The position numbers and the translations under genes are program-made. From a virus (Duplodnaviria; Caudoviricetes): DNA of 63,684 bases. The stretch spans positions 1 to 63,684 of IMG/VR virus record IMGVR_UViG_3300038315_001014; one strand, given 5' to 3'. A model generated the notes under the pieces. That model ran no database searches, was not told the DNA's origin, and was given only the letters and a program-made list of their open reading frames with translations. Positions 42,650 through 58,907 of this stretch are shown in pieces (position 1 is the stretch's first letter; each line of letters opens with the position of its first letter).

Positions 42650-42790
42650 ATGCCTTCAAGTACAGAAAAGCAACGCAAATTCATGGGTGCAGAGTTAGCC
42701 AGAAAACGTAAAGGCAAGAAAACAAAAACTAAAATGTCTGCAAAGCAACTAAGTGATTTCGCTAAGAAGAAAAAGAAGAAAACAAGATAA
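42650..42790 (+). CDS. Small very basic protein (46 aa, DUF3008-like)
   Basis: MPSSTEKQRKFMGAELARKRKG...MSAKQLSDFA; AGGAGG RBS. Confidence 0.65.
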   Translation: MPSSTEKQRKFMGAELARKRKGKKTKTKMSAKQLSDFAKKKKKKTR

Positions 42791-42791
42791 T

Positions 42792-42866
42792 TGCAGAGTG
42801 GAGAAGTGGTATCTAGTTGGACTCATAATCTGAAGGTCGAGGGTTCAAATCCCTCCTCTGCTACCA
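42792..42866 (+). tRNA. tRNA with CAT anticodon (Met/fMet-like)
   Basis: GCAGAG/CTCTGC acceptor with a 1:72 mismatch, CT-CAT-AA loop, GAGGG-TTCAAAT-CCCTC T arm and encoded CCA. Confidence 0.85.
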
Positions 42867-42918
42867 ATTTACCAGGAAAACCGTTGCCTGCTTAAAGTAC
42901 GGTACTAGGAGAACGACA

Positions 42919-43341
42919 ATGACTGAAATGGTTATAATTTCTGAAGAGCAAGCAACGGCACTTACATCGTTAGGTGTTACTGTAAAGAAATGTTATGCAA
43001 TCCCTAAAACTTTAGTGAGCATATTTAGTTCATTAGGGAAAGGGACCACACGAGCAACACCAAAAAGGAGGAAAGCAACAAAAGGCCCTAGCGTTAAAGC
43101 TATGAAGCTCGGTCTTAACGCTGAGAAGTTAGCTGAAAAAATATCAGAAGCTAGTATTACTGGACTAGCTGTAAAAACTATTGTGGGTGAAATGGACCCT
43201 AAGTATGTCTACCGCAGAGAAACTTTAACCACGATGTTAAAAAATGTAGGGCTTACTGGTGGGCGTTTGCATTGGCCCCTAACTGAGTTAGTACATAGAG
43301 GAATTCTTGTAGCTGCTCCACGGCATTCTGCTACGCGATGA
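42919..43341 (+). CDS. Basic hypothetical protein (possible wHTH C-terminus)
   Basis: AGGAGAACG RBS; LTELVHRGIL. Confidence 0.6.
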   Translation: MTEMVIISEEQATALTSLGVTVKKCYAIPKTLVSIFSSLGKGTTRATPKRRKATKGPSVKAMKLGLNAEKLAEKISEASITGLAVKTIVGEMDPKYVYRRETLTTMLKNVGLTGGRLHWPLTELVHRGILVAAPRHSATR

Positions 43342-43357
43342 CACTTAAGCTACTTTT

Positions 43358-43716
43358 GGTAGGTGGGGCGAGGCGTGGTGATGTAAGGTAAGGAACGGCT
43401 AGGTGTGGTAAGGCAGGTAAGGTTAGGTAAGGTTAGGTAAGTTCAGGTGGGGTGTGGTTGGGTAAGGCAGGTTTGGTATGGTTCGGTTTGGTGCGGTAGT
43501 ATGGGGTCGGGTATGGTCAGGTTGGGTAAGGCAGGTTTGGTATGGTTCAGTTTGGTGGGGTCAGGTGGGGTCGGGTATGGTCAGGTTGGGTAAGGCAGGT
43601 AAGGTTAGGTAAGTTCAGGTGGGGTCGGGCCGGGTACGGTCGGGTAAGTTGCGGCATGGTGAGGCAGGTAGGGTAGGGTAAGGTTAGGCGTGGTGATGTA
43701 TGGTGAGGTAAGGTTT
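43358..43716 (+). ncRNA. GGY-NN pentamer array with 6 units; putative multi-guide RNA
   Basis: 67 pentamers in strict 5-nt register. Units begin at GGTA (43358) and GGCA (43412, 43466, 43530, 43594, 43663). The repeat is certain; the RNA function is inferred. Confidence 0.75.
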
Positions 43717-43744
43717 TAATTTTAATTTTAATTTTAATTTTAAT
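43713..43744 (+). repeat. (TTTTAA)5 tract between the array and the RBS
   Basis: Seen directly; followed by CAGGAG RBS and ATG at 43757. Confidence 0.9.
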
Positions 43745-43756
43745 CAGGAGAGCAAC

Positions 43757-44386
43757 ATGAGTGTTCAAACAGAAAGTAATGTAGTTGTACTAAATAAACT
43801 AAATATTATAAAAGCACCAGTAATACTAATTGGTGATTCCCCTATTTTAATGCATAAGTGGTCAGACAAAGCAAAGAAAGAAATGCTTGATAAACAAATG
43901 GGGAAAAATACGAAGCAACGAGGGAAGAAAAATCCAGAGCAAGACTACAAAGAATCTATGCATAAATGTAGCGATGGACCTACAAAATATGGATTTCCCG
44001 CTAATGGAGTTAAGGCATGTGCCTGTCGTGGAGCTAAAGAAGTTGCTGGCCTTGATATGACTAAAGCACGCACCAGTTTTCATGTATTAGGAGAGTTAGT
44101 TCCTATTTATGGATCTCCAGAAATGCATGAGTCTATGGTACGAATTGCGCAAACAACTGACATTCGGTACCGTGGAATTTTTAATGAATGGGCAACTAGG
44201 TTTACTGTACGATTTAATGCTGACATCATTACATATGACCAGATTGTAAATATTTTTGAATATGGTGGTTTTGGTTGTGGCATAGGTGAGTGGCGACCAG
44301 CACGAAATGGTACTATGGGTATGTTTCATGTTGGTACTGAAGAAGAACTTACCTACTATATTAATAAGTATGGGGAGAAAGAATAA
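43757..44386 (+). CDS. Stand-alone Cas7/RAMP-like RNA-binding protein
   Basis: ILIGDSPILMH (beta1), YGFPANGVKAC (compare RAMP IPGSSLKG) and a C-terminal Gly-rich loop GGFGCGIGEWRPARNGTMGMF. Confidence 0.7.
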   Translation: MSVQTESNVVVLNKLNIIKAPVILIGDSPILMHKWSDKAKKEMLDKQMGKNTKQRGKKNPEQDYKESMHKCSDGPTKYGFPANGVKACACRGAKEVAGLDMTKARTSFHVLGELVPIYGSPEMHESMVRIAQTTDIRYRGIFNEWATRFTVRFNADIITYDQIVNIFEYGGFGCGIGEWRPARNGTMGMFHVGTEEELTYYINKYGEKE

Positions 44387-44847
44387 TGATTTATAAGTTT
44401 AAGAGTAGTACAAGGCCAACAGAAGAGTCTCAGCAGGTAGGTGAGACTCTTCTACAAATAAAAAAAGACCAGGATGTTTTACACGCATGTGAAGTTGTAG
44501 CACAAGCAAAAGAAAAAGATTCGGTACTACATAAATACTTTCAGTGGGACGATACTTTAGCAGCGGAGCAGCACCGACTTAACCAAGCAAGACACTTAAT
44601 TACCTCTGTAGAAATTGTTAGGGAAACTGGGGATAATCGTTCAATTACTATACCTGCGTATACACATTTACGTGTAGATAAACACGGGTACAGAGACACA
44701 GAAGAAGTGTATTCAGTTCAAGATCTACGTAGTTCTTTAGTTACGCAACTAAAAATAGACTGGGAAACACTAAAGAAAAAACATGATTCTGTACTACAAG
44801 AAATAGCTTCTTTTGAATCGTTTAACTCGGAAGTTACAAACCTATGA
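44386..44847 (+). CDS. Hypothetical partner protein of the RAMP-like gene
   Basis: TAATG coupling; SVLHKYFQWDD..AA.QHRL.QARHLI motif. Confidence 0.7.
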   Translation: MIYKFKSSTRPTEESQQVGETLLQIKKDQDVLHACEVVAQAKEKDSVLHKYFQWDDTLAAEQHRLNQARHLITSVEIVRETGDNRSITIPAYTHLRVDKHGYRDTEEVYSVQDLRSSLVTQLKIDWETLKKKHDSVLQEIASFESFNSEVTNL

Positions 44848-44893
44848 ACCTCATAACAGTGGATAGCCCTGAATATTGACAGTGAAGCGCCTT

Positions 44894-46429
44894 ATGGAAA
44901 TAATTCAAAATAAAGCACTACTAATCACGCTAAAAGACCCCCTACCTGTACTAAATGCCATACCAAAAAGTAAACAGGTAGGAGATAAAACACTTGTTTA
45001 CTGGGGCATAGATGAAGTACATAAGCTAAAGGAGCTTGGAGTAGACGCACCCTCTCCTATGGAACGAAAGTATCTTTGGACGCAGTGTATGATGACTCCC
45101 TTTGAACATCAAATCAAAACTGCTGCGTTCCTCACCCTATACAAACGCGCCTTCTGTTTTAACGAGCAAGGTACAGGGAAAACTGCCAGTGCAATATGGG
45201 CAAGCGATTATTTAATGAGCCTAGGAATTATTCATCGTGTACTAGTTATCTGCCCTTTGTCCATTATGGACACTGCATGGCGAGCAGAAATGTTTGACTG
45301 TGCTATGCACCGTACTGTAGATATAGCTTACGGCAGTGCAAAAAAACGTGCCACTATCATAGCAGGCAGTGCAGAGTACGTGATAATAAACTATGACGGA
45401 GTTAAGGTAGTTCATGATGAAATTAAGAAGGGGGGCTTCGATCTAATTATCGCTGACGAAGCGACTCACTATAAGAACGCAAATACTTCCCGTTGGAAGA
45501 AACTCCACAAGTTAATTACCGAAGATACTTGGGTATGGATGATGACAGGTACCCCAGCGGCGCAAAGTCCGTTGGATGCCTATGGGTTAGCTAAAATCAT
45601 TAACCCTACTGCTGTACCAAAGTGGTTCGGTTCGTTCCGTGACCTAGTAATGTTCAGGGTGAGTCAGTTTAGGTGGCTTCCGAAAGATAGCGCAACCACT
45701 ACGGTTCATCGTGTGCTGCAACCTGCTATCCGTTTTACAAAAGAAGAATGCTTAGACCTACCTGACATGGTTTACTTAACCCGCGATGTTGAGTTAACCC
45801 CACAACAGAAAAAATACTACGACGACCTAAAGAAACGAATGATCACAATAGCGGCAGGAGAGAGAATCACAGCTGTCAACGCAGCTAACATGATGAACAA
45901 ACTTCTGCAAATATCCTCCGGTGCAGTATACTCAGACGATAGTGAATCCATAGCATTTGACGTTTCGAACAGATATTCTGTTCTAAAAGAAGTCATTGAC
46001 GAGTCCAGTCACAAAGTGCTTATATTCGTTGCTTACCGGCATACAATACGAGTTGTAGCAGAAAAACTTAAAGCAGACAGTATCACAGGAGAAATAATAC
46101 AAGGCGATGTCTCAGTAACAGAACGCACTCGCATAATAAAAGCATTTCAGGAGAACCCAGACCCAAGAGTACTCATCCTTCAGCCCGCCGCCGCTGCCCA
46201 CGGTGTAACTCTCACAGCAGCAAATACTATAGTGTGGTGGAGTCCAATAAGTTCGTTAGAAACTTATTTACAGGCGAACGCTAGGGTCCACCGGGCAGGG
46301 CAGGTAAATAAGTGCAGCGTGATTCATCTACAAGGCTCTGCTATGGAACGTCACGTTTATGGACTATTGCGTAACAAAATAGACATCCATACAAAAATCA
46401 TTGAACTATACCAAGATTTGATAAAATAG
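44894..46429 (+). CDS. SNF2-family superfamily 2 helicase
   Basis: EQGTGKT, IINYD, ADEAT, MTGTP, HGVTLT and QANARVHRAGQ. Confidence 0.92.
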   Translation: MEIIQNKALLITLKDPLPVLNAIPKSKQVGDKTLVYWGIDEVHKLKELGVDAPSPMERKYLWTQCMMTPFEHQIKTAAFLTLYKRAFCFNEQGTGKTASAIWASDYLMSLGIIHRVLVICPLSIMDTAWRAEMFDCAMHRTVDIAYGSAKKRATIIAGSAEYVIINYDGVKVVHDEIKKGGFDLIIADEATHYKNANTSRWKKLHKLITEDTWVWMMTGTPAAQSPLDAYGLAKIINPTAVPKWFGSFRDLVMFRVSQFRWLPKDSATTTVHRVLQPAIRFTKEECLDLPDMVYLTRDVELTPQQKKYYDDLKKRMITIAAGERITAVNAANMMNKLLQISSGAVYSDDSESIAFDVSNRYSVLKEVIDESSHKVLIFVAYRHTIRVVAEKLKADSITGEIIQGDVSVTERTRIIKAFQENPDPRVLILQPAAAAHGVTLTAANTIVWWSPISSLETYLQANARVHRAGQVNKCSVIHLQGSAMERHVYGLLRNKIDIHTKIIELYQDLIK

Positions 46430-46442
46430 AGTACAATACAAA

Positions 46443-46504
46443 GCGAGAGTGGTGGAATGGCAGACACAACGGGTTTAAGACCCGTTGCTTTTAGGCATGA
46501 GGTT
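46443..46504 (+). pseudogene. Truncated tRNA-Leu(TAA), lacking most of the T arm and the 3' acceptor strand
   Basis: GTGGTGGAATGGCAGACAC D arm, ACGGG-TTTAAGA-CCCGT anticodon arm and a long variable arm. Confidence 0.7.
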
Positions 46505-46569
46505 GCGCCCAACGGAGGGAGTTAGGGATTTCAAACCCAAAACTGAGGGTTCAATTCCCTCCGCAACCA
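46501..46569 (+). tRNA. Atypical tRNA-like element, possible TCA anticodon
   Basis: GGTTGCG/CGCAACC acceptor and GAGGG-TTCAATT-CCCTC T arm; weak D and anticodon arms around TTTCAAA. Confidence 0.5.
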
Positions 46570-51401: not shown

Positions 51402-54400
51402 TTAGTCATCAAAAGCCCCCCACGTAGCATCAGCTTGTTCACTAGCATATCTCATCAATGGACTAAACTGCACTCCCCCTTCCATCTGAGAAGATGTTTT
51501 GTGGTGTCGCTTCATTGATCTGATAATTGTTGATAGCGGGATAAGCTCCCCCCCTATTCTAGACAGATGCCTTTCATTGAATTCTACTATCTCATCAAGT
51601 ATTTCCTGAAATTCAGCGTAGTCCATAAACCGATAGGCTACGTACAGGCGTTTTGTTAGCCTCTCACGCATAGTGGATATTGCGGTGCTGACCTTTTTCT
51701 TAGAGCGGTTCTTTTCTTGCTGGAACGTATACTGCGCCGGGGAGAAGCCCATCCCTTGCCAGAACATATCATTCGCATCTAGCCCATCTACAATAATGTC
51801 ACCTCTACGAGTGAGCGGAGCACCATCATGTATGTACCGAAAAGCTTTCATTACATTACGTAATGCTGTTGGGGCCATAGTTTCTAGGGCACGTTCAACT
51901 TCACGTGGGGTATTTGCTTCTAACAAGTCCTCACGCCCGCGATTGATCTCTGATACTACACTACCAAAAGGACCAGTAGCATACCGTGCTAACTGGTCCC
52001 CAAGGGTTAGATTTTCTGTAAAAGGATTTGTTCTATATAGCAGCCCCGACAAACCTACACGCTGTGCTACGTCTGCACCTGACCCGTAATTTATCACACC
52101 TTTATACAGGGGTTCCCCCATATGCAAACGTACTATGGTTTCGAAATCTTCCTCATCATCTTCAAGGAACATAAGATTAGCTAGCGCAGATACAATAGCG
52201 AAAAACGGAAGGCCCTGGACACCAGATAAAATTAACGTAGATCCCAAAACCCCTAAAAATTGCTTAGTAGCTTCGTGTCGGTTTTTTTCTCCAGCTATCT
52301 GTTGTTTAATTGCTGTCTTAGCTGTTCTAAGTAGGTAATGGTACATAGTAGCGCCAAAAGGTTTATACATAAGCGCAACTCTCAACGCTCCTTTACGTGC
52401 CGCACTTGCTACCAAATTACGATTAGTCCCGCCGTTATACTCCTCTGTTTTCTGTAGTGCCTCTAATGCAATCTCTTCATACTCTGCTTTTGTAAGTTCT
52501 TTCTTGGTTACGTACTCTACTCCGTTACGAACTTCTTTTACTGTTCTTCTCTTATCTATCTCTAGCATATAAGCAGACATCATGGTTATTTGGCGAGTGT
52601 ACTTTTCGAAATGATGGAACATAAACGCAGACCACTTACTAATTTTACTTGACCATCCCTCTCGCTTACCTGCCTCGCCCAAATCCATTGATTCAAAAGC
52701 TGCAGACTGTCCTAGCATCGCACGTTTAGCTGCAGCGTCTATCAAGATGAGTAACTTATATTCTGTCAAAATTTCAGTAGTAGTCTCCCCTAACTCTCTA
52801 AGTTCTTTCTCCCCAATAAGCGTACTCTTTGTAAAAACTTCTTCACGTAGCTCCTGCTCTCCCTTTTTGTTTACTACTACGTAATTCCCTATGTTTAGCG
52901 CTGCTTTAGAAAATACTGTGCTCTCATCACCGTAATCAGCCGCCAGTTTTATCTCTGTTCCCCACCCGCTATTGGCAAACACCTTGTTCGCTTTGTGTAT
53001 CATCTTAATAGCTTCTACATGTCCATACCTAGCAGCAAGGGCAGGATACACAATAAGCGCTAGCTGAGTCAGATTAACCATTGCTGAGGATGGGTTGAAT
53101 CCAATCGTCCATAAAAAAGCTATTCTAGTAGCTATTGTAGCCAACTGATCTTTCGGCGGTGATGCAGCAAAGTGGGCCTCACTTATCATCTGCTCAATTA
53201 ATTCTACGTTTTTGGTGTCGTTCTTTTCTAGCGCCTCTTTTAACTCCCCTTTTTTAACATCCGCTACCTTGTACAATTCCTCTGCATACTTAAGCTGCTC
53301 TACCTGAAAACGCATAGAATGAGCACGCTCCTCAAACACCTCAAATAGGTTCTCTTCAAATCCAAGAATATTCTTCCGCTTTTGTAGCCCCTTAACAAAG
53401 GAAGCTTCTGGTAAAAGATCAATGAATATCTCCATGATATCTGCTTTTACCATAGCCCTTGCAGTTTTAGCAGTTTTATCCTTCTCTGGATCAACATCAG
53501 GCGCGGCGTTATTCATTCTTGTAAATATCTGGTTAATGAAAGAGGCAGTGGGCGCGTCTCTGTACACCACAGACTTATTAACAATAGACCTATGCACTGC
53601 GCCTAAAAGATCTAACGCCTCATCTCTAGTAGTCGCTTTGTTTCCTTTATCTTCAAGTTTGCGGGTTATCTCAATCGCTGAGTACTTTTCCCTAAGCTCA
53701 GGACGTATAACATTCTGTATGAACGTCTCTCTAGCCTCTGGAGACTGGAGATGCTCTACTGCAAGTTCCCCGTTGAAATCAAAAGTAACTCTGTAATCTC
53801 CCTTCCTTGCAAGCGGTAAGTATCCGTCTATCTTATTCTTGAACAACATGCTCATCACTCTGTTCTTTACTTCTTTTGCCCCCTCTACATCGTCCCCCAT
53901 TACAAAATCTATCCGCTTGAAAACTACGTTCTTCATATCGTCGTATATGATTTCATATGCATCAATAATATGTTTCAGTGTCTTCTTTGCGCCGGGACCA
54001 GCTTTTGCCAACTCCTTCGTTAGTTCCCCATGTATTTTTAGTTTGGCCCCTTCATAAGCTGAAGCAGGTTTTGTTACGTCCACTTCGGCTAAAGTACCTT
54101 TGTTACCAACTTCAATTAACGTTTCTATTTGTGCTGCACTACGCTTTCTTAGCCACTCATTATTTTTTACTATCGACCCCGATACGCTATCATGCCCACT
54201 CCTTATCGCTGCGTTCATAAAGTGAATTAATTCTTCTCCCCTATTGGGATCTTTAAGCTTCGCGTCCTCTGCGAACTTAGCATCATTACGTACCCCTGCA
54301 GTAGCAAAGAAGCCTTTTTTAGCTAGCGTACTCAATTTTCTAAATGTCGTAGCCAGTCTTATTTTTTCCGTAAGTAGCCGCCCGCCTTTATCAAGTGCCT

Positions 54401-57400
54401 TAGTAAACCTTTTCCGTCCTTCGTAGTACGCATCGTATAACTCTACTGTAGTTGCAGCTGCATACAATTGTCCTGCGTCACGATACTGCGGTGCAGGGGA
54501 AAGCATAGCGTTAGTGAGGTCGTCCACTCTATCCAACACAGTGGGCTTTGTCTTAGGGGGCCTACCTACCAATCTACGCATACCGTTCATAACAATACGA
54601 GAAAACCATTCCAGCGCATTACGTACCGGACCTTTGGATAACGTTATAGATGCCAGTGCTTGTCTAAACTCTATGTTACTAGATGCTTCAGTCACAAACT
54701 CATGTACTGATTGCGACCCGTAATACGTCCCTAAATTATCCTTAACAGCTTCATACAAGGCAGTGAGCTGCTTAGCCTCCCTCGACTCCCCAGTAGCTAA
54801 ATCATGAGAAGTGAACGCATGCATCGTTTCGTGCATTAACACATGCGTATTAACCCCAAACTCAGCGTCAAGCTGTATCGTGTTCGTCTTAGGATCAAAT
54901 AGTCCAGCTACGTGCTCACCCCTCTCGTTAATAAGCTTATCCACCACCTCCAATTTTGTGTCAGTAAGTGTAGCAGCGAGCTTTTTAGCAAGAGTTCTTA
55001 GCCGCCCACTCATACTTGTATGGGCAATATTTGTTAGTGCACTTCCTAGATCCCCATTATGTACATACTGAGTAGTCAGGGGATGCAACGGATGATCAAG
55101 GGCAGAAACTTCACTCAATGTTAAGTTAAGTTGAACGTTATCCGAAATATCCTCAACTGTAGTCTCACCTATCCCTAACTCACTCTGAACATCCTGAACT
55201 GTAGTCTCCTTTATCCCCACTTCAACCTTATCACCAACGAAGATCTTCTCAAGCTCAGCTTCTTGCTCTTCTGCAGGCGCAGCTTCTTCCTGTGCCCCTC
55301 TCTTAGCGCGTACATCTGCTTTCTTTAGCTGCTTCTTCGCTAGTGCTGTACCCTTAGTTTCTGCTTTGGCTTTCTTCGCTTCAGCTTTGGCTTTCTTCGC
55401 CTCGGCTTTTGCTTCAGCCTCAGCTTTGGCTTCAGCCGTAGCTGCCCTCCTAGCTTTCGCTCTGGCTTTAGTTTCTGCTTTCTGCCTACTTAGAGCACCT
55501 CCTTCAATTGTACCAACAGTACTCTTCGCAAGTTCTATTTTTGTCTTCAATATTATTCGCGCCTCGGCAGATAAATTTTCTTTTATCCATTTTCTAGCTT
55601 GCTTAAGTTGTTCCTGTTTAAGCCCTTTATAAAAAGCTTGAACCTCAGCAGGATTCCCCTGGTTAAGTTCGTTTGCAACTTTAAATATAGAGTGGTAGCC
55701 TAGCAAAGATATATTATCTATCAGCCGAGGGAGCTTGCTAAATACTACCTGTGCACTTGAAGCATTTGTAGAAGTTTCCGATCTGTATCCTTTCTTAGTT
55801 TTGTTAGTAAGTAATGTTTTTTCTTTAGTGTTTAACAAAGCAAGTATTTTTACTTTATCACCTAAAGGCAAATCAATCTTCTTATTCTCTACCGCAAACA
55901 CCAACCCTTTAGTCTTTCGTAGCATGTCCATAATTTTTTTAGCTACGCCGCCAGCATGTTTTGTACCCCACATTGCTTGTATAAACGCATCTATTTCCGC
56001 ATGAGAAATGCGTCTGTCTTTAGCTTCTGCTCTCGCATTTACTTCCCTTACAAGCGCATCCAGTGCAGTATCCCCAGTAACTCCCTCAACTGCGGAAACT
56101 AACTCATTGTTCTTAAGCGCTGCAAATTTCTTCCTTGCTGCTTCTTGCTCCGCAGTCGTAGCTACTTGCTCAGGTGCAACAGTCGTAGCAGTCCTACTAC
56201 GCTCAGCTTCTTGTGCTCTATTCGCTGCGCGTACTCCAGCCCTACGTGCCTTCTCCTTCACTGCTTCTGCAAGAAACTTCTTTACATTCTCACGGTACTT
56301 TTTCTGCTTAGTCCTACTATAGTTAACATGCTCATCAAAATTTGCAGGCGTAACTCCCCACTCTGCTAAATCGTATGCATATTCTTGCGCACCCTTCATA
56401 CCTGGTGCTCTCAATAACGCAGTCTGTACTTCTCCTGCTACTACAGACGTAACTTTTGGTTTAGGCTTTACTTCTACTTTTGGTTTTATTCCTCGATCTA
56501 TAACTTCAACGCCCCCTCCATCTACTAGCGCTCTTACCTGCTCAATAGTACCATCCATCCCAGTGAGCCACTCTAAGACACGGGGGAAATTTTCTTTTGG
56601 TGTAGCGTTAATCTTCTCAGCGAGTTCCTTTTTTAGCTCGTTCGCTTTTGTTAATGCCCCTACCCTTGTTCTGGATTCAATTTTATTTTGTAGCGAAGTG
56701 TAGTCTGATCTAGTTTCAGATACTTCTACTTTACGTTTAGCAGCTTTCGCATGCTCTATACTTGCTCTAAGTTGGCCCAGCGTTTTTTGCAGTACTACGC
56801 TATTACTGCCTTCTGTGGGGTAAGCTCTAACTTTACTACTACCAACACTAACTAAGTTATACAATTTTTCTGATAAATCCTCTCTAAACTTTTGCCCTCT
56901 ACTAATATGTGTGTCCAAATAGTTCATTAAGTCTTCTGCAGGTATCGCTGCTTCTGCACGGTCTAATTCTGCCAACAGTCCATTTTGATTTTCATAATGG
57001 AACTGAGCTTTGTGTGACATTTTTGTTAGCTTTTTATCGCTAGTCGCCGTATATGAATCCAATTCAGGATCTTTTTTCTTCCTTACAGCTCCTCCCACTG
57101 CTGGCGCTTCAACAACCTCAATACCGCTTAAGATCTCTGCAATGTTGGCACCTTCACCTACAAGTTCGCCATCAGCGTCATGTCCTTCAACTGCTTCTCC
57201 ATCTGTTATTCTGTAATTTACTCCTTTGAACTCAATCTCCCCCTCAGCTTCTAGGTCACTTTGGGCTTCTTCAATTTCGTCCAACGTAGGAGCTGCTATC
57301 TCTTGCTTTCCTGTAAGTATCTTTTCGTCAGCTATAAACGCATCTGAAACTTCGGGTGGGGTTTTTTGCGCCTCTTTTTTACTGAAGTCAAGTTCCAGTT

Positions 57401-58907
57401 GGTCTTCTGATACTTCCTCAGCTACCTCCTCAACAGCAGCCTCACTTTCAAGAGAACCTAGACGTTTGCGCTTACGGTTCCTACCAAGCCCTGGAAGTCC
57501 TATTTGTTGTTCTGGCTGTGGCTGCAACGGTGCTCGTTCTTTTGGTTCAGTAACAGGTGCAGAAGCTGCCGCTCTAGCTTCCTTTGCTTTTTGTCTAAGT
57601 TTTTCTTGTGCAGTTGCTCTAACTTTTTCACTTGTTGTGTTTCTTAGTAGCCATTTAAGTGCACTGATCTTTTTAGTTTCTGCTTCCTCTTTTGTTCTTT
57701 TTTTCTTCGCTTCTTTTGCGGCTGCTTTTTGTCGTTTTTCTTCCGCAGCTTCTTGCCCAGCTATAGATCGTTTACGTTGTTCTTCTTTTTCTGCAAGTTG
57801 CTGATCTTCTTCTATCTGCATTTGCCGTAATTCTTCTTCGTCTAGCATATACTCAGCAGCTTCAAGCTCTTGTGCCTGACGGGTTTCTTGCACTATATCT
57901 TGCCGTAATTCTTCTTCGTCTAGCATATACTCAGCAGCTTCATCTCGCTCATCCTCTCGTCTTTTTACATCTTGTGCTGCTACAACTCTATCGACTTTAG
58001 CTTTTTTCCTTCGCTCCCCTTCTGTTGCCCGCTCTTCTTTAAGTGTAGCGTAACGTCTTGCACGTGTTCGCCTAGTGATAACTTCCATAACTGCCTGTAC
58101 AAAACCACCAACACCCCCACCATAACCAACAGCTTCCCCCCAACCTTCATAAGTTTCTTGGTCTGGGTTGTACCCTTGCTCAATGGAGTTCTGTAACACT
58201 GCAGCAACAAATTCTTGCGCTCCTTCTGCCCCCGCCTGGGTAAGGATACGCGCCCCAGTACTAACAACCTCCCTTGCCTTAGTTTTGCCAAACATCTTAA
58301 GCCAAGCAGCGGGTAACAACTTAAGTGATCCAACTGGGATTATTTCTGTTAGTCCAACCGCCGCACCTTTTAGTGCCGCTAAACCACGTTCCTCTTCTGA
58401 AGCCCCTTCTTCTCTTGCACGTTCACTCGCTTCACCTGCACCAGCACCTACACCTAACGCAGCAGAACCAAGTATGCCCGCTATCCCCGCACCAGGAATA
58501 AGGGCAGGAGCGGCCACACCAAGAAAGGAACCAAGTGCTTCAGAGAACTTTCTAGGAACCATCCAACGTAGCCCACGATCAGCAGCTAAATACTCCTGCA
58601 TAGGTTCAAAAGCTCCCATAATACCTTCCCGCACAGGAGCTTCGTACTTTTCTGATAGCATAGTGGCACCACCAAGCAACCCAGACTCGATCCTGCTCGC
58701 AGCACCAGAGGCGATACCTTTAGGGACTTCCTGTAAATAATCTAAAACAGAGGGGTCGGGATGGAGTAACTCAGAGAGTTTTTGAAATTCTTGTATCCTA
58801 TGCTGGCGATTAGCAAGTCTAACTAATTCTTTTTTCGACGCATTAGCAGGAGCTTCTACCTTTATAGAAGCCCCCGACCTACGATCTGTTACGGTATGTA
58901 TAGGCAT
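51402..58907 (-). CDS. Giant internal virion/ejection protein (polyvalent type) with zincin metallopeptidase and PLxRFG-like regions
   Basis: 2501 aa; Gly/Ala membrane-like N-terminus, K/E/A coiled coils, GLFDP...LMHETMH...HEFVTE and YLPLARKGDY. Confidence 0.75.
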   Translation of the reverse strand: MPIHTVTDRRSGASIKVEAPANASKKELVRLANRQHRIQEFQKLSELLHPDPSVLDYLQEVPKGIASGAASRIESGLLGGATMLSEKYEAPVREGIMGAFEPMQEYLAADRGLRWMVPRKFSEALGSFLGVAAPALIPGAGIAGILGSAALGVGAGAGEASERAREEGASEEERGLAALKGAAVGLTEIIPVGSLKLLPAAWLKMFGKTKAREVVSTGARILTQAGAEGAQEFVAAVLQNSIEQGYNPDQETYEGWGEAVGYGGGVGGFVQAVMEVITRRTRARRYATLKEERATEGERRKKAKVDRVVAAQDVKRREDERDEAAEYMLDEEELRQDIVQETRQAQELEAAEYMLDEEELRQMQIEEDQQLAEKEEQRKRSIAGQEAAEEKRQKAAAKEAKKKRTKEEAETKKISALKWLLRNTTSEKVRATAQEKLRQKAKEARAAASAPVTEPKERAPLQPQPEQQIGLPGLGRNRKRKRLGSLESEAAVEEVAEEVSEDQLELDFSKKEAQKTPPEVSDAFIADEKILTGKQEIAAPTLDEIEEAQSDLEAEGEIEFKGVNYRITDGEAVEGHDADGELVGEGANIAEILSGIEVVEAPAVGGAVRKKKDPELDSYTATSDKKLTKMSHKAQFHYENQNGLLAELDRAEAAIPAEDLMNYLDTHISRGQKFREDLSEKLYNLVSVGSSKVRAYPTEGSNSVVLQKTLGQLRASIEHAKAAKRKVEVSETRSDYTSLQNKIESRTRVGALTKANELKKELAEKINATPKENFPRVLEWLTGMDGTIEQVRALVDGGGVEVIDRGIKPKVEVKPKPKVTSVVAGEVQTALLRAPGMKGAQEYAYDLAEWGVTPANFDEHVNYSRTKQKKYRENVKKFLAEAVKEKARRAGVRAANRAQEAERSRTATTVAPEQVATTAEQEAARKKFAALKNNELVSAVEGVTGDTALDALVREVNARAEAKDRRISHAEIDAFIQAMWGTKHAGGVAKKIMDMLRKTKGLVFAVENKKIDLPLGDKVKILALLNTKEKTLLTNKTKKGYRSETSTNASSAQVVFSKLPRLIDNISLLGYHSIFKVANELNQGNPAEVQAFYKGLKQEQLKQARKWIKENLSAEARIILKTKIELAKSTVGTIEGGALSRQKAETKARAKARRAATAEAKAEAEAKAEAKKAKAEAKKAKAETKGTALAKKQLKKADVRAKRGAQEEAAPAEEQEAELEKIFVGDKVEVGIKETTVQDVQSELGIGETTVEDISDNVQLNLTLSEVSALDHPLHPLTTQYVHNGDLGSALTNIAHTSMSGRLRTLAKKLAATLTDTKLEVVDKLINERGEHVAGLFDPKTNTIQLDAEFGVNTHVLMHETMHAFTSHDLATGESREAKQLTALYEAVKDNLGTYYGSQSVHEFVTEASSNIEFRQALASITLSKGPVRNALEWFSRIVMNGMRRLVGRPPKTKPTVLDRVDDLTNAMLSPAPQYRDAGQLYAAATTVELYDAYYEGRKRFTKALDKGGRLLTEKIRLATTFRKLSTLAKKGFFATAGVRNDAKFAEDAKLKDPNRGEELIHFMNAAIRSGHDSVSGSIVKNNEWLRKRSAAQIETLIEVGNKGTLAEVDVTKPASAYEGAKLKIHGELTKELAKAGPGAKKTLKHIIDAYEIIYDDMKNVVFKRIDFVMGDDVEGAKEVKNRVMSMLFKNKIDGYLPLARKGDYRVTFDFNGELAVEHLQSPEARETFIQNVIRPELREKYSAIEITRKLEDKGNKATTRDEALDLLGAVHRSIVNKSVVYRDAPTASFINQIFTRMNNAAPDVDPEKDKTAKTARAMVKADIMEIFIDLLPEASFVKGLQKRKNILGFEENLFEVFEERAHSMRFQVEQLKYAEELYKVADVKKGELKEALEKNDTKNVELIEQMISEAHFAASPPKDQLATIATRIAFLWTIGFNPSSAMVNLTQLALIVYPALAARYGHVEAIKMIHKANKVFANSGWGTEIKLAADYGDESTVFSKAALNIGNYVVVNKKGEQELREEVFTKSTLIGEKELRELGETTTEILTEYKLLILIDAAAKRAMLGQSAAFESMDLGEAGKREGWSSKISKWSAFMFHHFEKYTRQITMMSAYMLEIDKRRTVKEVRNGVEYVTKKELTKAEYEEIALEALQKTEEYNGGTNRNLVASAARKGALRVALMYKPFGATMYHYLLRTAKTAIKQQIAGEKNRHEATKQFLGVLGSTLILSGVQGLPFFAIVSALANLMFLEDDEEDFETIVRLHMGEPLYKGVINYGSGADVAQRVGLSGLLYRTNPFTENLTLGDQLARYATGPFGSVVSEINRGREDLLEANTPREVERALETMAPTALRNVMKAFRYIHDGAPLTRRGDIIVDGLDANDMFWQGMGFSPAQYTFQQEKNRSKKKVSTAISTMRERLTKRLYVAYRFMDYAEFQEILDEIVEFNERHLSRIGGELIPLSTIIRSMKRHHKTSSQMEGGVQFSPLMRYASEQADATWGAFDD

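What the first reader, a model, noticed from the sequence alone, without database searches (positions are those of the whole stretch)
43371..43700. Array units appear to diversify by duplication and recombination
U3 and U4 differ at only two NN positions. U2 and U5 share GGTAAGGTTAGGTAAGTTCAGGTGGGGT. U1 and U6 share AGGCGTGGTGATGTA, including the same degenerate TGT triplet. This suggests new guides arise by in-register slippage and point mutation rather than Cas1-type acquisition.
Basis: partly seen in the sequence, partly recalled or inferred. Interest (0 to 1): 0.7.

Follow-up and report, generated by a model that had tools for sequence, protein, structure and literature searches.

The report
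Phage VIPR guide array, slippage-diversified
The stretch is the guide-RNA array of a recently described phage weapon called VIPR, and its units, like those of related phages, change by copying, losing and reshuffling whole five-letter repeats and whole guides rather than by a CRISPR-style capture enzyme.

Summary
Window 43358-43716 (+) is an intergenic array of six units of 10-13 GGYNN repeats, separated by a 4-nt GGCA step. U3 and U4 differ at 2 of 12 NN positions. Token shuffles never reach the two best matches (0 of 2000; 0 of 1000).

The array belongs to a VIPR system, described in three 2026 bioRxiv preprints. The next gene (43757-44386) is a Vipr/Cas7-like RAMP. A conserved accessory gene follows.

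- The genome has no Cas1 and no reverse transcriptase.
- In 16 related mycobacteriophages, arrays differ by 5-nt repeats or whole units (59 and 113 nt) while 1200 nt of flank differ by 0-1 nt.
- In one metagenomic trio, homologous units differ by 5, 10 and 15 nt, and two units have swapped order.

Against it:
- Only 5 of 68 arrays show internal paralogy.
- The closest relative's array shares no guide with the window's.

Slippage therefore explains guide variants, not the origin of wholly new guides. This is a new member of a known kind. The point about array evolution appears not to be in print.

The parts
42919..43341 (+). Upstream ORF (140 aa) of unknown function. It ends 17 nt before the array.
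   Evidence: ORF list. No PHROG, Pfam or NCBIfam match. No promoter-like or terminator-like site lies between it and the array on the + strand, so co-transcription is inferred.
43358..43361 (+). GGTA 4-nt step that opens the array. It looks like the junctions but has T where they have C.
   Evidence: Read from the sequence.
43362..43411 (+). Unit U1, 10 GGYNN repeats. Repeat 5 is degenerate (TGT) and repeat 7 is GGA. Shares a 15-mer with U6.
43412..43415 (+). GGCA junction 1. Read in the upstream register it is a terminal GGCAG repeat that overlaps the next unit's first G by 1 nt.
   Evidence: The same -1 register shift is seen at 144 GGCAGGY junctions in 39 arrays.
43416..43465 (+). Unit U2, 10 repeats. 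Shares a 28-mer with U5 and has an extra GGTTA GGTAA (10 nt). Its last two NN (TG AA) match the ends of U3 and U4.
43466..43469 (+). GGCA junction 2.
43470..43529 (+). Unit U3, 12 repeats. Paralogue of U4: 10 of 12 NN are identical.
43530..43533 (+). GGCA junction 3.
43534..43593 (+). Unit U4, 12 repeats. Paralogue of U3. Its repeats 6-8 (CA GG CG) equal U5 repeats 4-6.
43594..43597 (+). GGCA junction 4.
43598..43662 (+). Unit U5, 13 repeats. Its head is paralogous to U2.
43663..43666 (+). GGCA junction 5.
43667..43716 (+). Unit U6, 10 repeats. Shares a 15-mer with U1, including the TGT.
43714..43744 (+). (TTTTAA)5 tract between the array and the vipr ribosome-binding site. Function unknown.
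   Evidence: Tandem Repeats Finder: period 6, 5.2 copies, 100% match. A similar tract lies at the same place in relative L189.
43757..44386 (+). vipr: a 209-aa Cas7-like RAMP protein that, by homology, polymerises on the GGYNN RNA.
   Evidence: phrog_4652. AF2 model pLDDT 89.5. Foldseek against PDB gives 29 hits with E<=1e-3, led by Csm3/Cas7. The family profile hits 'SUSP1 Vipr protein' 36pp_D at E 2.3e-10. E178, W179, R180 and R139 are invariant or nearly so. They align to SUSP1 D177, W178, R179 and R138, which the structure preprint names as GGY contacts.
44386..44847 (+). vap-like accessory gene (153 aa).
   Evidence: phrog_15946. A homologue lies next to vipr on the same strand in 54 of 60 viral loci. 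AF2 pLDDT 91.2. No PDB fold match at E<=1e-3, and the weak top hits include winged-helix regulators.

Best explanation
Window 43358-43716 is the guide array of a VIPR (Viral Interference Programmable Repeat) system in a complete 63.7-kb marine phage genome.

How it works, by homology. The array is transcribed with the flanking genes. The Vipr protein (43757-44386) binds one GGY per protomer and presents the NN dinucleotides. These read double-stranded DNA of a competing mobile element with one target base skipped per repeat, which silences it. This step is taken from the preprints on phage SUSP1 and is not shown here.

Architecture. The array is of the 'staggered' kind. It has six guides of 10-13 repeats and no 3' tail. 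Each guide abuts the next at a constant GGCA(G) junction that shifts the register by -1.

How it diversifies. The guides are partly paralogous: U3~U4, U2~U5, and more weakly U1~U6 and U4~U5. Such arrays change without an adaptation enzyme, by three processes:
(a) replication slippage of whole 5-nt repeats, especially at tandem identical repeats;
(b) gain, loss, duplication and re-ordering of whole units by unequal or illegitimate recombination at the constant junctions;
(c) occasional NN substitutions.

Processes (a) and (b) are shown by comparison in relatives. For the window's own array they are inferred from its internal repeats. These processes make variants of existing guides. The source of unrelated new guides is not explained.
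For: Identity of the element.
- GGYNN periodicity and GGCA junctions.
- Vipr is a Cas7/Csm3-like RAMP by fold. Its family profile matches SUSP1 Vipr at E 2.3e-10. The G-loop and thumb residues are conserved.
- 34 of 60 viral loci that encode a Vipr relative carry a GGYNN array of at least 100 nt. All 34 are on the gene's strand and none on the other. A 5-nt G periodicity peak lies near the gene in most of the rest.
- An accessory gene is adjacent in 54 of 60 loci.
- The published description matches: 9-16 YNNGG repeats, and staggered arrays with a 1-nt overlap.

Paralogy in the window.
- Shuffles reach the two best matches 0 of 2000 times and 0 of 1000 times.
- Paralogous units share degenerate scaffold triplets.

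No adaptation enzyme.
- Cas1: 0 matches. RVT_1: 0 matches.

Mode of change in relatives.
- The 16 Cheoctovirus mycobacteriophages give 9 array haplotypes. Where 1200 nt of leader, vipr and vap differ by 0-1 nt, the arrays differ by one, two or three 5-nt gaps, by 59 nt (11 repeats plus GGCA), or by 113 nt (two units).
- The 5-nt events sit at GGCCC GGCCC and at GGCGA GGCGA.
- L234 against L252: three homologous unit pairs differ by 10 nt, by a net 5 nt, and by 15+5 nt, at 49/49, 48/48 and 48/49 identity. Two units are in swapped order. L240 has 1 unit where L252 has 6, a 250-nt difference.
- Other array indels between near-identical contigs are 9 nt (GGCA plus one repeat) and 19 nt.

Independent sample.
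- Contigs of a run from another sample and another study match the window without any difference over 42900-43531 and 43502-43595.
Against: - No RNA data exist for this phage, so expression and processing of the six units are inferred.
- No target was found. A 1-nt-skip scan of U1-U6 over the window and all fetched loci (3.36 Mb, both strands) gave nothing above shuffled guides.
- Only 5 of 68 distinct arrays of at least 150 nt show within-array NN-run sharing reached by 1% of shuffles or fewer. The window's degree of paralogy is therefore unusual. Those 68 include near-duplicates and other VIPR types.
- The window's array and that of L189 share a longest run of 3 NN, which 499 of 500 shuffles reach. 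The L189 genes are about 82% identical in nucleotides. Whole guides thus turn over by something other than slow divergence of duplicates.
- The register-preserving pattern of indels could partly reflect selection against out-of-register arrays rather than mutational bias.
- No contig from an independent run bridges the whole array, so the order and number of the near-identical units are not independently verified.
- The profile match to SUSP1 Vipr covers only the C-terminal 67 profile positions.
Confidence: 0.8

Rival explanations
1. The shared blocks and the unit order are an assembly artefact. Short-read assemblers mis-join or mis-count near-identical 50-65-nt units, so U3/U4 and U2/U5 might be one unit each, or be arranged differently.
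For: Logan contigs of four runs all break inside the array, and none spans it. The only full-length second copy is metagenome contig L188. It is 100% identical over 5076 nt and may come from the same sample. The look-up of sequencing runs marks two runs as a possible source.
Against: - U3 and U4 differ at 6 positions, so they are distinct sequences rather than a collapsed repeat.
- Run X3, from another sample and another study, reproduces 42900-43531 and 43502-43595 with 0 differences, which covers U1-U3 and all of U4.
- The same kind of array, with paralogous and slipped units, is seen in finished genomes of cultured phages.
Confidence: 0.08
2. The shared blocks are convergent. Units resemble each other because they were selected independently against the same or overlapping target sequence, not because they were copied from one another.
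For: The VIPR preprint reports many vrRNAs converging on one target locus: 18 of 20 SUSP1-clade targets and 36 P. fulva-clade vrRNAs. U3 and U4 share 10 of 12 NN, above the 80% NN match that the preprint uses as its hit threshold, so they would read nearly the same site.
Against: - The blocks share degenerate scaffold triplets that are not read against the target. GTT lies inside the U2/U5 block and TGT inside the U1/U6 block (mechanism).
- U2 differs from U5 by a tandem 10-nt repeat, which is a slippage signature.
- In mycobacteriophages, identical units sit in arrays that differ only by tandem single-repeat copies.
Confidence: 0.07
3. Slippage and duplication are side effects. New guides are installed by an unknown dedicated or horizontal route, for example recombination with arrays of co-infecting phages or an unrecognised host or phage enzyme. 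That route, not duplication plus point mutation, creates new specificities.
For: - 63 of 68 arrays lack detectable internal paralogy.
- The window and L189 share no guides although their genes are about 82% identical.
- Between mycobacteriophage haplotypes whose flanks differ by about 1.2% (14 of 1200), whole units are replaced by unrelated ones.
- Substitutions are not enriched in arrays of near-identical pairs.
Against: - No candidate enzyme is present: no Cas1 and no RT. The locus is two genes plus the array.
- Among all array pairs compared, NN runs of 6 or more are shared only between close relatives (3 pairs), so this small sample shows no exchange across lineages.
- A 5-nt-period guide cannot be copied directly from a 3-nt-period target.
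Confidence: 0.3
4. The G-rich tract is not a guide array. It could instead be a replication origin or R-loop element, a G-quadruplex tract or a protein sponge in the replication module.
For: It lies among replication genes: PolA, a PD-(D/E)XK nuclease, an SNF2 helicase and a DUF927 primase. It is G-rich on the coding strand and is followed by an AT-rich (TTTTAA)5 tract.
Against: - The tract is linked to a Vipr/RAMP gene, on the same strand, across very different phage backgrounds, including the lysogeny-switch region of mycobacteriophages.
- It has the exact GGY/NN anatomy and unit length of published vrRNAs.
- The GGY-contacting residues of Vipr are conserved.
Confidence: 0.03

Closest known systems
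VIPR systems, staggered-array architecture (bioRxiv 10.64898/2026.04.26.720920; Results, Discussion, the type-classification method section and figure legends read, figures and supplements not seen)
   Same: It is phage-encoded. A small RAMP protein is paired with an accessory gene. The long intergenic tract consists of GGY/NN pentamers in units of 10-13 repeats, within the published range of 9-16. Adjacent units overlap by 1 nt at the junction, as the legend of fig. S18 describes. There is no Cas1.
   Different: The host is an uncultured marine phage, with the locus in its replication module. The array lies upstream of vipr, whereas most relatives seen here have it downstream. VIPR type I-VII could not be assigned, because the defining tree and locus figures are not available. 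The preprint says staggered arrays were not among the architectures confirmed by small-RNA sequencing.
Type II VIPR of Escherichia phage SUSP1 (same preprint; structure preprint 10.64898/2026.04.26.720927, sections 5 and 6 read; PDB 36pp)
   Same: The Vipr proteins are homologous: profile E 2.3e-10, with the G-loop [D/E]-W-R-P and the thumb Arg conserved. The RNA code is GGYNN.
   Different: SUSP1 vrRNAs are separate transcripts of about 100 nt, each with an invariable 3' tail and pseudoknot. The window's units have no tail and abut directly. The sequence match covers only the C-terminal third of the protein.
Class 1 CRISPR-Cas (Cas7/Csm3 backbone with a CRISPR array)
   Same: The protein has a RAMP fold; the top PDB fold hits are Csm3 and Cas7-11 at E 5e-5 to 1e-3. 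One protomer binds per fixed RNA step. Multiple guides are encoded in one array.
   Different: The period is 5 nt with a sequence-specific GGY, not 6 nt. There are no palindromic repeats. Cas1, Cas2, Cas5, Cas6 and Cas10 are absent. Guides are not copies of target DNA, so new guides cannot be captured by integration.
Microsatellite or contingency-locus slippage, and unequal crossing-over in tandem arrays (general knowledge, recalled)
   Same: Changes come in whole-repeat steps at tandem identical repeats. Whole higher-order units are gained or lost. Arrays vary while the flanks are identical.
   Different: Here the repeat is the scaffold of a guide RNA, so a step changes guide length and reading register rather than switching a gene on or off.

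Membership tests
VIPR system | A Vipr protein: a minimal single-RRM RAMP with G-loop and thumb, homologous to SUSP1 Vipr | tested here: met
   AF2 pLDDT 89.5. Foldseek against PDB gives 29 hits with E<=1e-3, all listed ones RAMP backbone subunits. The family profile hits 36pp_D 'SUSP1 Vipr protein' at E 2.3e-10 over profile positions 129-195. The G-loop E178-W179-R180-P181 and R139 are conserved and align to SUSP1 D177, W178, R179 and R138.
VIPR system | Tracts of tandem GGY/NN (YNNGG) pentamers, 9-16 per vrRNA, next to vipr on its strand | tested here: met
   Six units of 10-13 repeats at 43362-43716 on the + strand, 41 nt upstream of vipr. 8 matches of (GGTNN)4GGT against 0 in shuffles.
VIPR system | An adjacent vipr-accessory (vap) gene | tested here: inconclusive
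   A conserved 153-aa gene directly follows vipr, and does so in 54 of 60 relatives. Whether it is one of the published vap1-6 could not be tested, because no vap sequence or family model was available. Its fold has no PDB match at E<=1e-3.
VIPR system | vrRNAs are expressed, processed and bound by Vipr | not testable with these tools
   No RNA run holds the stretch (0 runs on record as RNA). No promoter-like or terminator-like site flanks the array on the + strand.
VIPR system | NN dinucleotides match a natural DNA target under the 1-nt-skip rule | tested here: inconclusive
   The scan of the window plus all loci (3.36 Mb, both strands) found no hit above shuffled guides, and no self-target. 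Public collections were not scanned with the gapped patterns.
VIPR type II (SUSP1-like) | Each vrRNA ends in a conserved 3' tail of about 40 nt with a pseudoknot | tested here: not met
   Units abut at a 4-nt GGCA with no intervening tail. The same holds at 144 junctions in 39 arrays of relatives.
VIPR staggered arrays (fig. S18 legend) | Adjacent vrRNAs overlap by 1 nt, so the end of one marks the start of the next | tested here: met
   In the upstream register the last repeat is GGCAG. Its final G is the first G of the next unit's first GGY, which gives unit spacing of 5k+4 (54, 64, 64 and 69 nt). This mapping to the legend is my inference, because the figure was not seen.
CRISPR-Cas | Cas1 (and Cas2) adaptation module | tested here: not met
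   PF01867 gives 0 matches at E<=1 in the complete record, while the control genomes give hits.
CRISPR-Cas | An array of identical direct repeats of about 25-40 nt separating unique spacers | tested here: not met
   The only constant element between units is GGCA (plus flanking GGY). Rfam gathering-threshold hits in the window are tRNA only.

The most novel reading that the evidence does not exclude
VIPR arrays diversify themselves. The invariant GGY scaffold makes every guide a 5-nt microsatellite, and the constant GGCA(G) junction makes every unit a recombination cassette. Replication slippage and unequal recombination would then generate guide-length, guide-copy and guide-order variants faster than point substitution. 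Arrays differ while 1200-nt flanks are identical. On this reading the system has a Cas1-free, untemplated way to vary and re-assort guides, and near-duplicate guides such as U3 and U4 are an allelic series that tracks polymorphic targets. The mirrored order of paralogues in the window (U1 U2 U3 | U4 U5 U6), together with the swapped unit order between L234 and L252, would then be footprints of recombination between array haplotypes of co-infecting phages.
Probability: 0.45. Interest if true: 0.6.

Novelty: new member of a known kind. Interest (0 to 1): 0.45.

Why it matters
VIPR was described only in 2026 and is proposed as the ancestor of CRISPR RAMP effectors. I found no account of how its guide repertoire changes without an adaptation module. 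'slippage' has 0 hits in the main text of each of the three VIPR preprints. No paper in the library holds both 'vrRNA' and 'slippage'. Supplements were closed.

This window adds a marine member with a staggered array whose units are visibly paralogous. The comparison it prompted shows that arrays change by whole repeats and whole units while the neighbouring genes stay identical. That gives a concrete picture of array dynamics and makes the question testable in cultured phages of a harmless laboratory host.

It also has a practical use for annotation. In deposited mycobacteriophage genomes these arrays are called as protein-coding genes.

Tried and rejected
(1) Before the fold search I considered a replication origin or R-loop element, a G-quadruplex tract, a TRAP-like or CsrA-like protein sponge and a type III toxin-antitoxin RNA. 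I dropped these once the neighbouring gene proved to be a Vipr/RAMP and the array-gene linkage held across unrelated phage backgrounds.

(2) blastn of 42700-44900 against 50,697 phage records matched only the tRNA-Met.

(3) Rfam found tRNA only. Pfam and NCBIfam gave nothing for vipr or vap.

(4) Literature searches with 'pentanucleotide repeat'/'phage'/'G-rich', 'Cas7-like', 'Cas7'/'phage-encoded'/'5-nt' and 'Csm3-like' found nothing relevant. The PDB sequence hit gave the name.

(5) The target search by the 1-nt-skip rule in local data gave no hit above the null.

(6) The exact 28-mer block has 0 matches in viral contigs, with the window's own record left out by the tool.

(7) Read-level variation could not be assessed. 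Only Logan contigs were available and none bridges the array. X4 and X6 cover little of it, and a 40-nt X4 piece with 2 other letters at depth 2.6 is too weak to use.

(9) Complex prediction, the ESM Atlas and the search of protein representatives were not used.

(10) VIPR type I-VII could not be assigned, because the figures and supplements that define the types were not available.
Full report
**What is there.** The window is a whole IMG/VR virus record of 63,684 nt, rated 100% complete. Between a 140-aa ORF that ends at 43341 and a 209-aa ORF that starts at 43757 lies a G/T-rich tract. In it GGT recurs every 5 nt from 43358 to 43716. The spacing is 9 nt at five places, each at GGCAGGT. The pattern (GGTNN)4GGT matches 8 times, all here and all on the + strand, against 0 matches in 100 shuffles.

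Cutting at the 4-nt GGCA steps gives six units of 10, 10, 12, 12, 13 and 10 repeats. A (TTTTAA)5 tract and a ribosome-binding site follow. The surrounding genes form a replication module with a tRNA-Met: PolA, a PD-(D/E)XK nuclease, an SNF2 helicase and a DUF927 primase.

All three statements check out.
- The 28-mer occurs at 43426 and 43598, and the 15-mer at 43371 and 43686.
- U3 and U4 differ at 2 of 12 NN dinucleotides.
- With the 67 pentamer tokens shuffled, the two best shared NN runs (6 and 5) were reached in 0 of 2000 shuffles and the third (3) in 56 of 2000.
- The two 28-nt exact matches were reached in 0 of 1000 shuffles and the third-longest match (15 nt) in 4 of 1000. The U1-U6 match alone was reached in 12 of 1000, which is suggestive only.
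- Two further details fit a mosaic. U2 equals the head of U5 plus a tandem extra GGTTA GGTAA (10 nt), and it ends like U3 and U4 (TG AA). The two NN at which U4 departs from U3 make U4 repeats 6-8 identical to U5 repeats 4-6.

**What it is.** The downstream protein has no Pfam or NCBIfam match and belongs to phrog_4652. An AlphaFold model built on 28 relatives has pLDDT 89.5. Its best PDB fold matches are Csm3/Cas7 backbone subunits, Cas7-11 domains, Cmr4 and type VII Cas7. There are 29 hits with E<=1e-3 and TM about 0.4-0.5. Among viral models, one hit is named a RAMP superfamily protein. A profile of the family hits one PDB sequence, 36pp_D 'SUSP1 Vipr protein', at E 2.3e-10 over the C-terminal 67 profile positions.

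That name led to three 2026 bioRxiv preprints on VIPR, Viral Interference Programmable Repeat systems. I read:
- the Results, the Discussion, the type-classification method section and the figure legends of 10.64898/2026.04.26.720920;
- sections 5 and 6 of 10.64898/2026.04.26.720927;
- the Discussion, and passages found by term search, of 10.64898/2026.10.15.759431.

According to them, a small phage-encoded RAMP (Vipr) polymerises on RNAs made of 9-16 YNNGG repeats, one protomer per repeat. It hides the GGY and presents the NN. The NN pair with double-stranded DNA while skipping every third target base, which silences competing mobile elements.

In the SUSP1 protein the named GGY contacts are D177, W178 and R179 of the G-loop and R138 of the thumb. 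In the alignment these fall on the window protein's E178, W179, R180 and R139, which are invariant or nearly so in the family.

The preprint also mentions 'staggered arrays' in which adjacent vrRNAs overlap by 1 nt. That is what the GGCA step amounts to. In the upstream register the last repeat is GGCAG, and its last G is the first G of the next unit. This mapping is my inference from the legend, because the figure was not available.

**Support from relatives.**
- 34 of 60 viral loci that encode a Vipr relative have a GGYNN array of at least 100 nt by a strict rule. All 34 are on the gene's strand and none on the other.
- A 5-nt G periodicity peak lies near the gene in most of the remaining loci.
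- A homologue of the next gene (44386-44847, phrog_15946) is adjacent in 54 of 60 loci. Its model is confident (pLDDT 91.2) but has no PDB match at E<=1e-3. I call it vap-like by position only.
- Across 39 arrays, 144 GGCAGGY junctions keep the GG register at -15, -10 and -5 and at +4, +9 and +14.
- 215 of 293 4-nt steps are GGCA, and the distance between junctions is mostly 8-13 repeats.

**How the array changes.** The genome has no Cas1 and no reverse transcriptase.

*First comparison: metagenomic near-duplicates.*
- Arrays were identical where the flanks differed by 0.02-0.6%: 0 of 321 against 27 of 4674, and 0 of 96 against 32 of 5266.
- Where arrays did differ, the indels were 9 nt (GGCA plus one repeat), 19 nt and 250 nt.

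*Second comparison: the trio L234, L252 and L240, with flanks 92-95% identical.*
- L240 has one unit, L252 has six and L234 has at least five.
- Three unit pairs are clearly homologous (49/49, 48/48 and 48/49 identical). They differ by 10 nt, by a net 5 nt, and by 15 nt at the 5' end plus 5 nt at the 3' end.
- Two of these units stand in opposite order in the two phages.

*Third comparison: cultured phages.* Vipr homologues occur in 152 deposited phage records. I fetched 16 of the 27 Mycobacterium records, all Cheoctovirus. All 16 carry a GGCNN array with GGCA junctions just upstream of vipr, and they fall into 9 array haplotypes. Where 1200 nt of leader, vipr and vap differ by 0-1 nt, the arrays differ as follows.

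| Haplotype pair | Array difference |
|---|---|
| Saal/Gorge vs BobaPhett/SwagPigglett/James | one 5-nt gap |
| Saal/Gorge vs DRBy19 | one 5-nt gap |
| Saal/Gorge vs Philus | three 5-nt gaps |
| Saal/Gorge vs ByChance | 59 nt (11 repeats plus GGCA) and 5 nt |
| Donkeykong vs the Brocalys group | one 113-nt gap (two units) and one mismatch |

The 5-nt events lie at tandem identical repeats (GGCCC GGCCC, and GGCGA GGCGA), which is the signature of slippage. One within-unit insertion is 16 nt: three repeats, one of them 6 nt long.

Taken together, within-unit length changes are multiples of 5 in 7 of 8 cases. All 5 changes that span j junctions equal 5k+4j.

**What this does not explain.**
- Only 5 of 68 distinct arrays of at least 150 nt show within-array NN-run sharing that 1% or fewer of shuffles reach. 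The set includes near-duplicates and other array types.
- The array of the closest relative, L189, is about 950 nt long and sits at the same place upstream of (TTTTAA)n and vipr. Its Vipr is 75% identical and its genes about 82% identical in nucleotides. It shares with the window only a run of 3 NN, which 499 of 500 shuffles reach.
- Between mycobacteriophage haplotypes whose flanks differ by about 1.2%, whole units are replaced by unrelated ones.

Duplication, slippage and reshuffling therefore account for variants, lengths and order. The origin of unrelated guides remains open. Selection against out-of-register arrays could also contribute to the register-preserving pattern.

**The window's own lineage.**
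- A metagenome contig (L188) is identical over 5076 nt, but it may come from the same sample.
- Of four runs laid as Logan contigs, none bridges the array.
- One run from another sample and another study matches 42900-43531 and 43502-43595 with no difference.
- One run has a contig that leaves the window at 43445 (inside U2). The 30 nt that follow are exactly window 44784-44813, inside the 3' end of the accessory gene. This fits a 1338-nt deletion of the rest of the array, vipr and most of vap. I could not follow it further.
- The order and number of the near-identical units are thus not independently verified.
- No target was found in the sequence held locally. Public collections were not scanned with the gapped patterns.

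**Verdict.** The element is a VIPR locus with a staggered six-guide array: a new member of a kind described in 2026, not a new kind.

I found no discussion of array diversification in the main texts. 'slippage' has 0 hits in each of the three preprints. No paper holds both 'vrRNA' and 'slippage', and 8 papers hold 'vrRNA', of which 4 are relevant.

Noticed in passing
window 43446-44783: In run X5 one Logan contig (2102 nt, depth 7.8) follows the window up to 43445, inside U2. It then continues with 30 nt that are exactly window 44784-44813. This fits a 1338-nt deletion that removes the rest of the array, all of vipr and most of the accessory gene, with CA on both sides of the joint. It would be a natural VIPR-null variant that keeps U1 and part of U2. 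It recalls the vipr-vap1 deletions in solo-vrRNA phages named in the section headings and legends of 10.64898/2026.10.15.759431.
   Followed up: partly
L268 1983-2369; L273 1096-1284; L278 1130-1294; L279 1150-2082: In deposited mycobacteriophage genomes the GGCNN array is annotated as a protein-coding gene, or is swallowed by an extended vipr start. Examples are Donkeykong gp48, LastJedi gp43, BobaPhett gp51 and Philus gp52. The vipr and vap genes are labelled 'hypothetical protein'.
   Followed up: partly
L283 1336-2553; L275 2097-2813: In phage Gorge one annotated CDS (gp54) spans both vipr and the accessory gene, and tblastn splits the match into two pieces. In Pippy the accessory gene is annotated longer than in its relatives. 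I did not examine whether these are real fusions or frameshifts or merely annotation choices.
   Followed up: no
window 43714-43744 and L189 about 2455-2485: A (TTTTAA)n tract sits between the end of the array and the vipr ribosome-binding site, both in the window and in its closest relative, although their arrays are unrelated. Function unknown.
   Followed up: no
window 43362-43716: The paralogous pairs are nested in mirror order (U1~U6, U2~U5, U3~U4), all in direct orientation. A single tandem block duplication would not give this. With three pairs the arrangement has a 1 in 15 chance, and U1~U6 is weak, so it may mean nothing.
   Followed up: partly
window 46443-46565: Rfam reports a tRNA match of 31.8 bits (gathering score 29) spread over 123 nt on the + strand. 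ARAGORN does not call it. It may be a tRNA with an insertion, or a chance hit.
   Followed up: no
L189 1503-2455 and 3597-5427: The closest relative has an array of about 950 nt, with 17 junctions by my tokeniser. Its PolA gene lies downstream of the accessory gene, whereas in the window PolA lies upstream of the array. The module has therefore moved relative to the replication genes.
   Followed up: no
Single-sequence tblastn finds a Vipr relative in 16 of these 119 stretches. Some arrays (L078, L088, L165; the last is 1150 nt) lack GGCA junctions and probably belong to other VIPR architectures or are solo arrays.
   Followed up: partly
window 51402-58907: A 2501-aa ORF lies on the minus strand. 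I did not analyse it.
   Followed up: no
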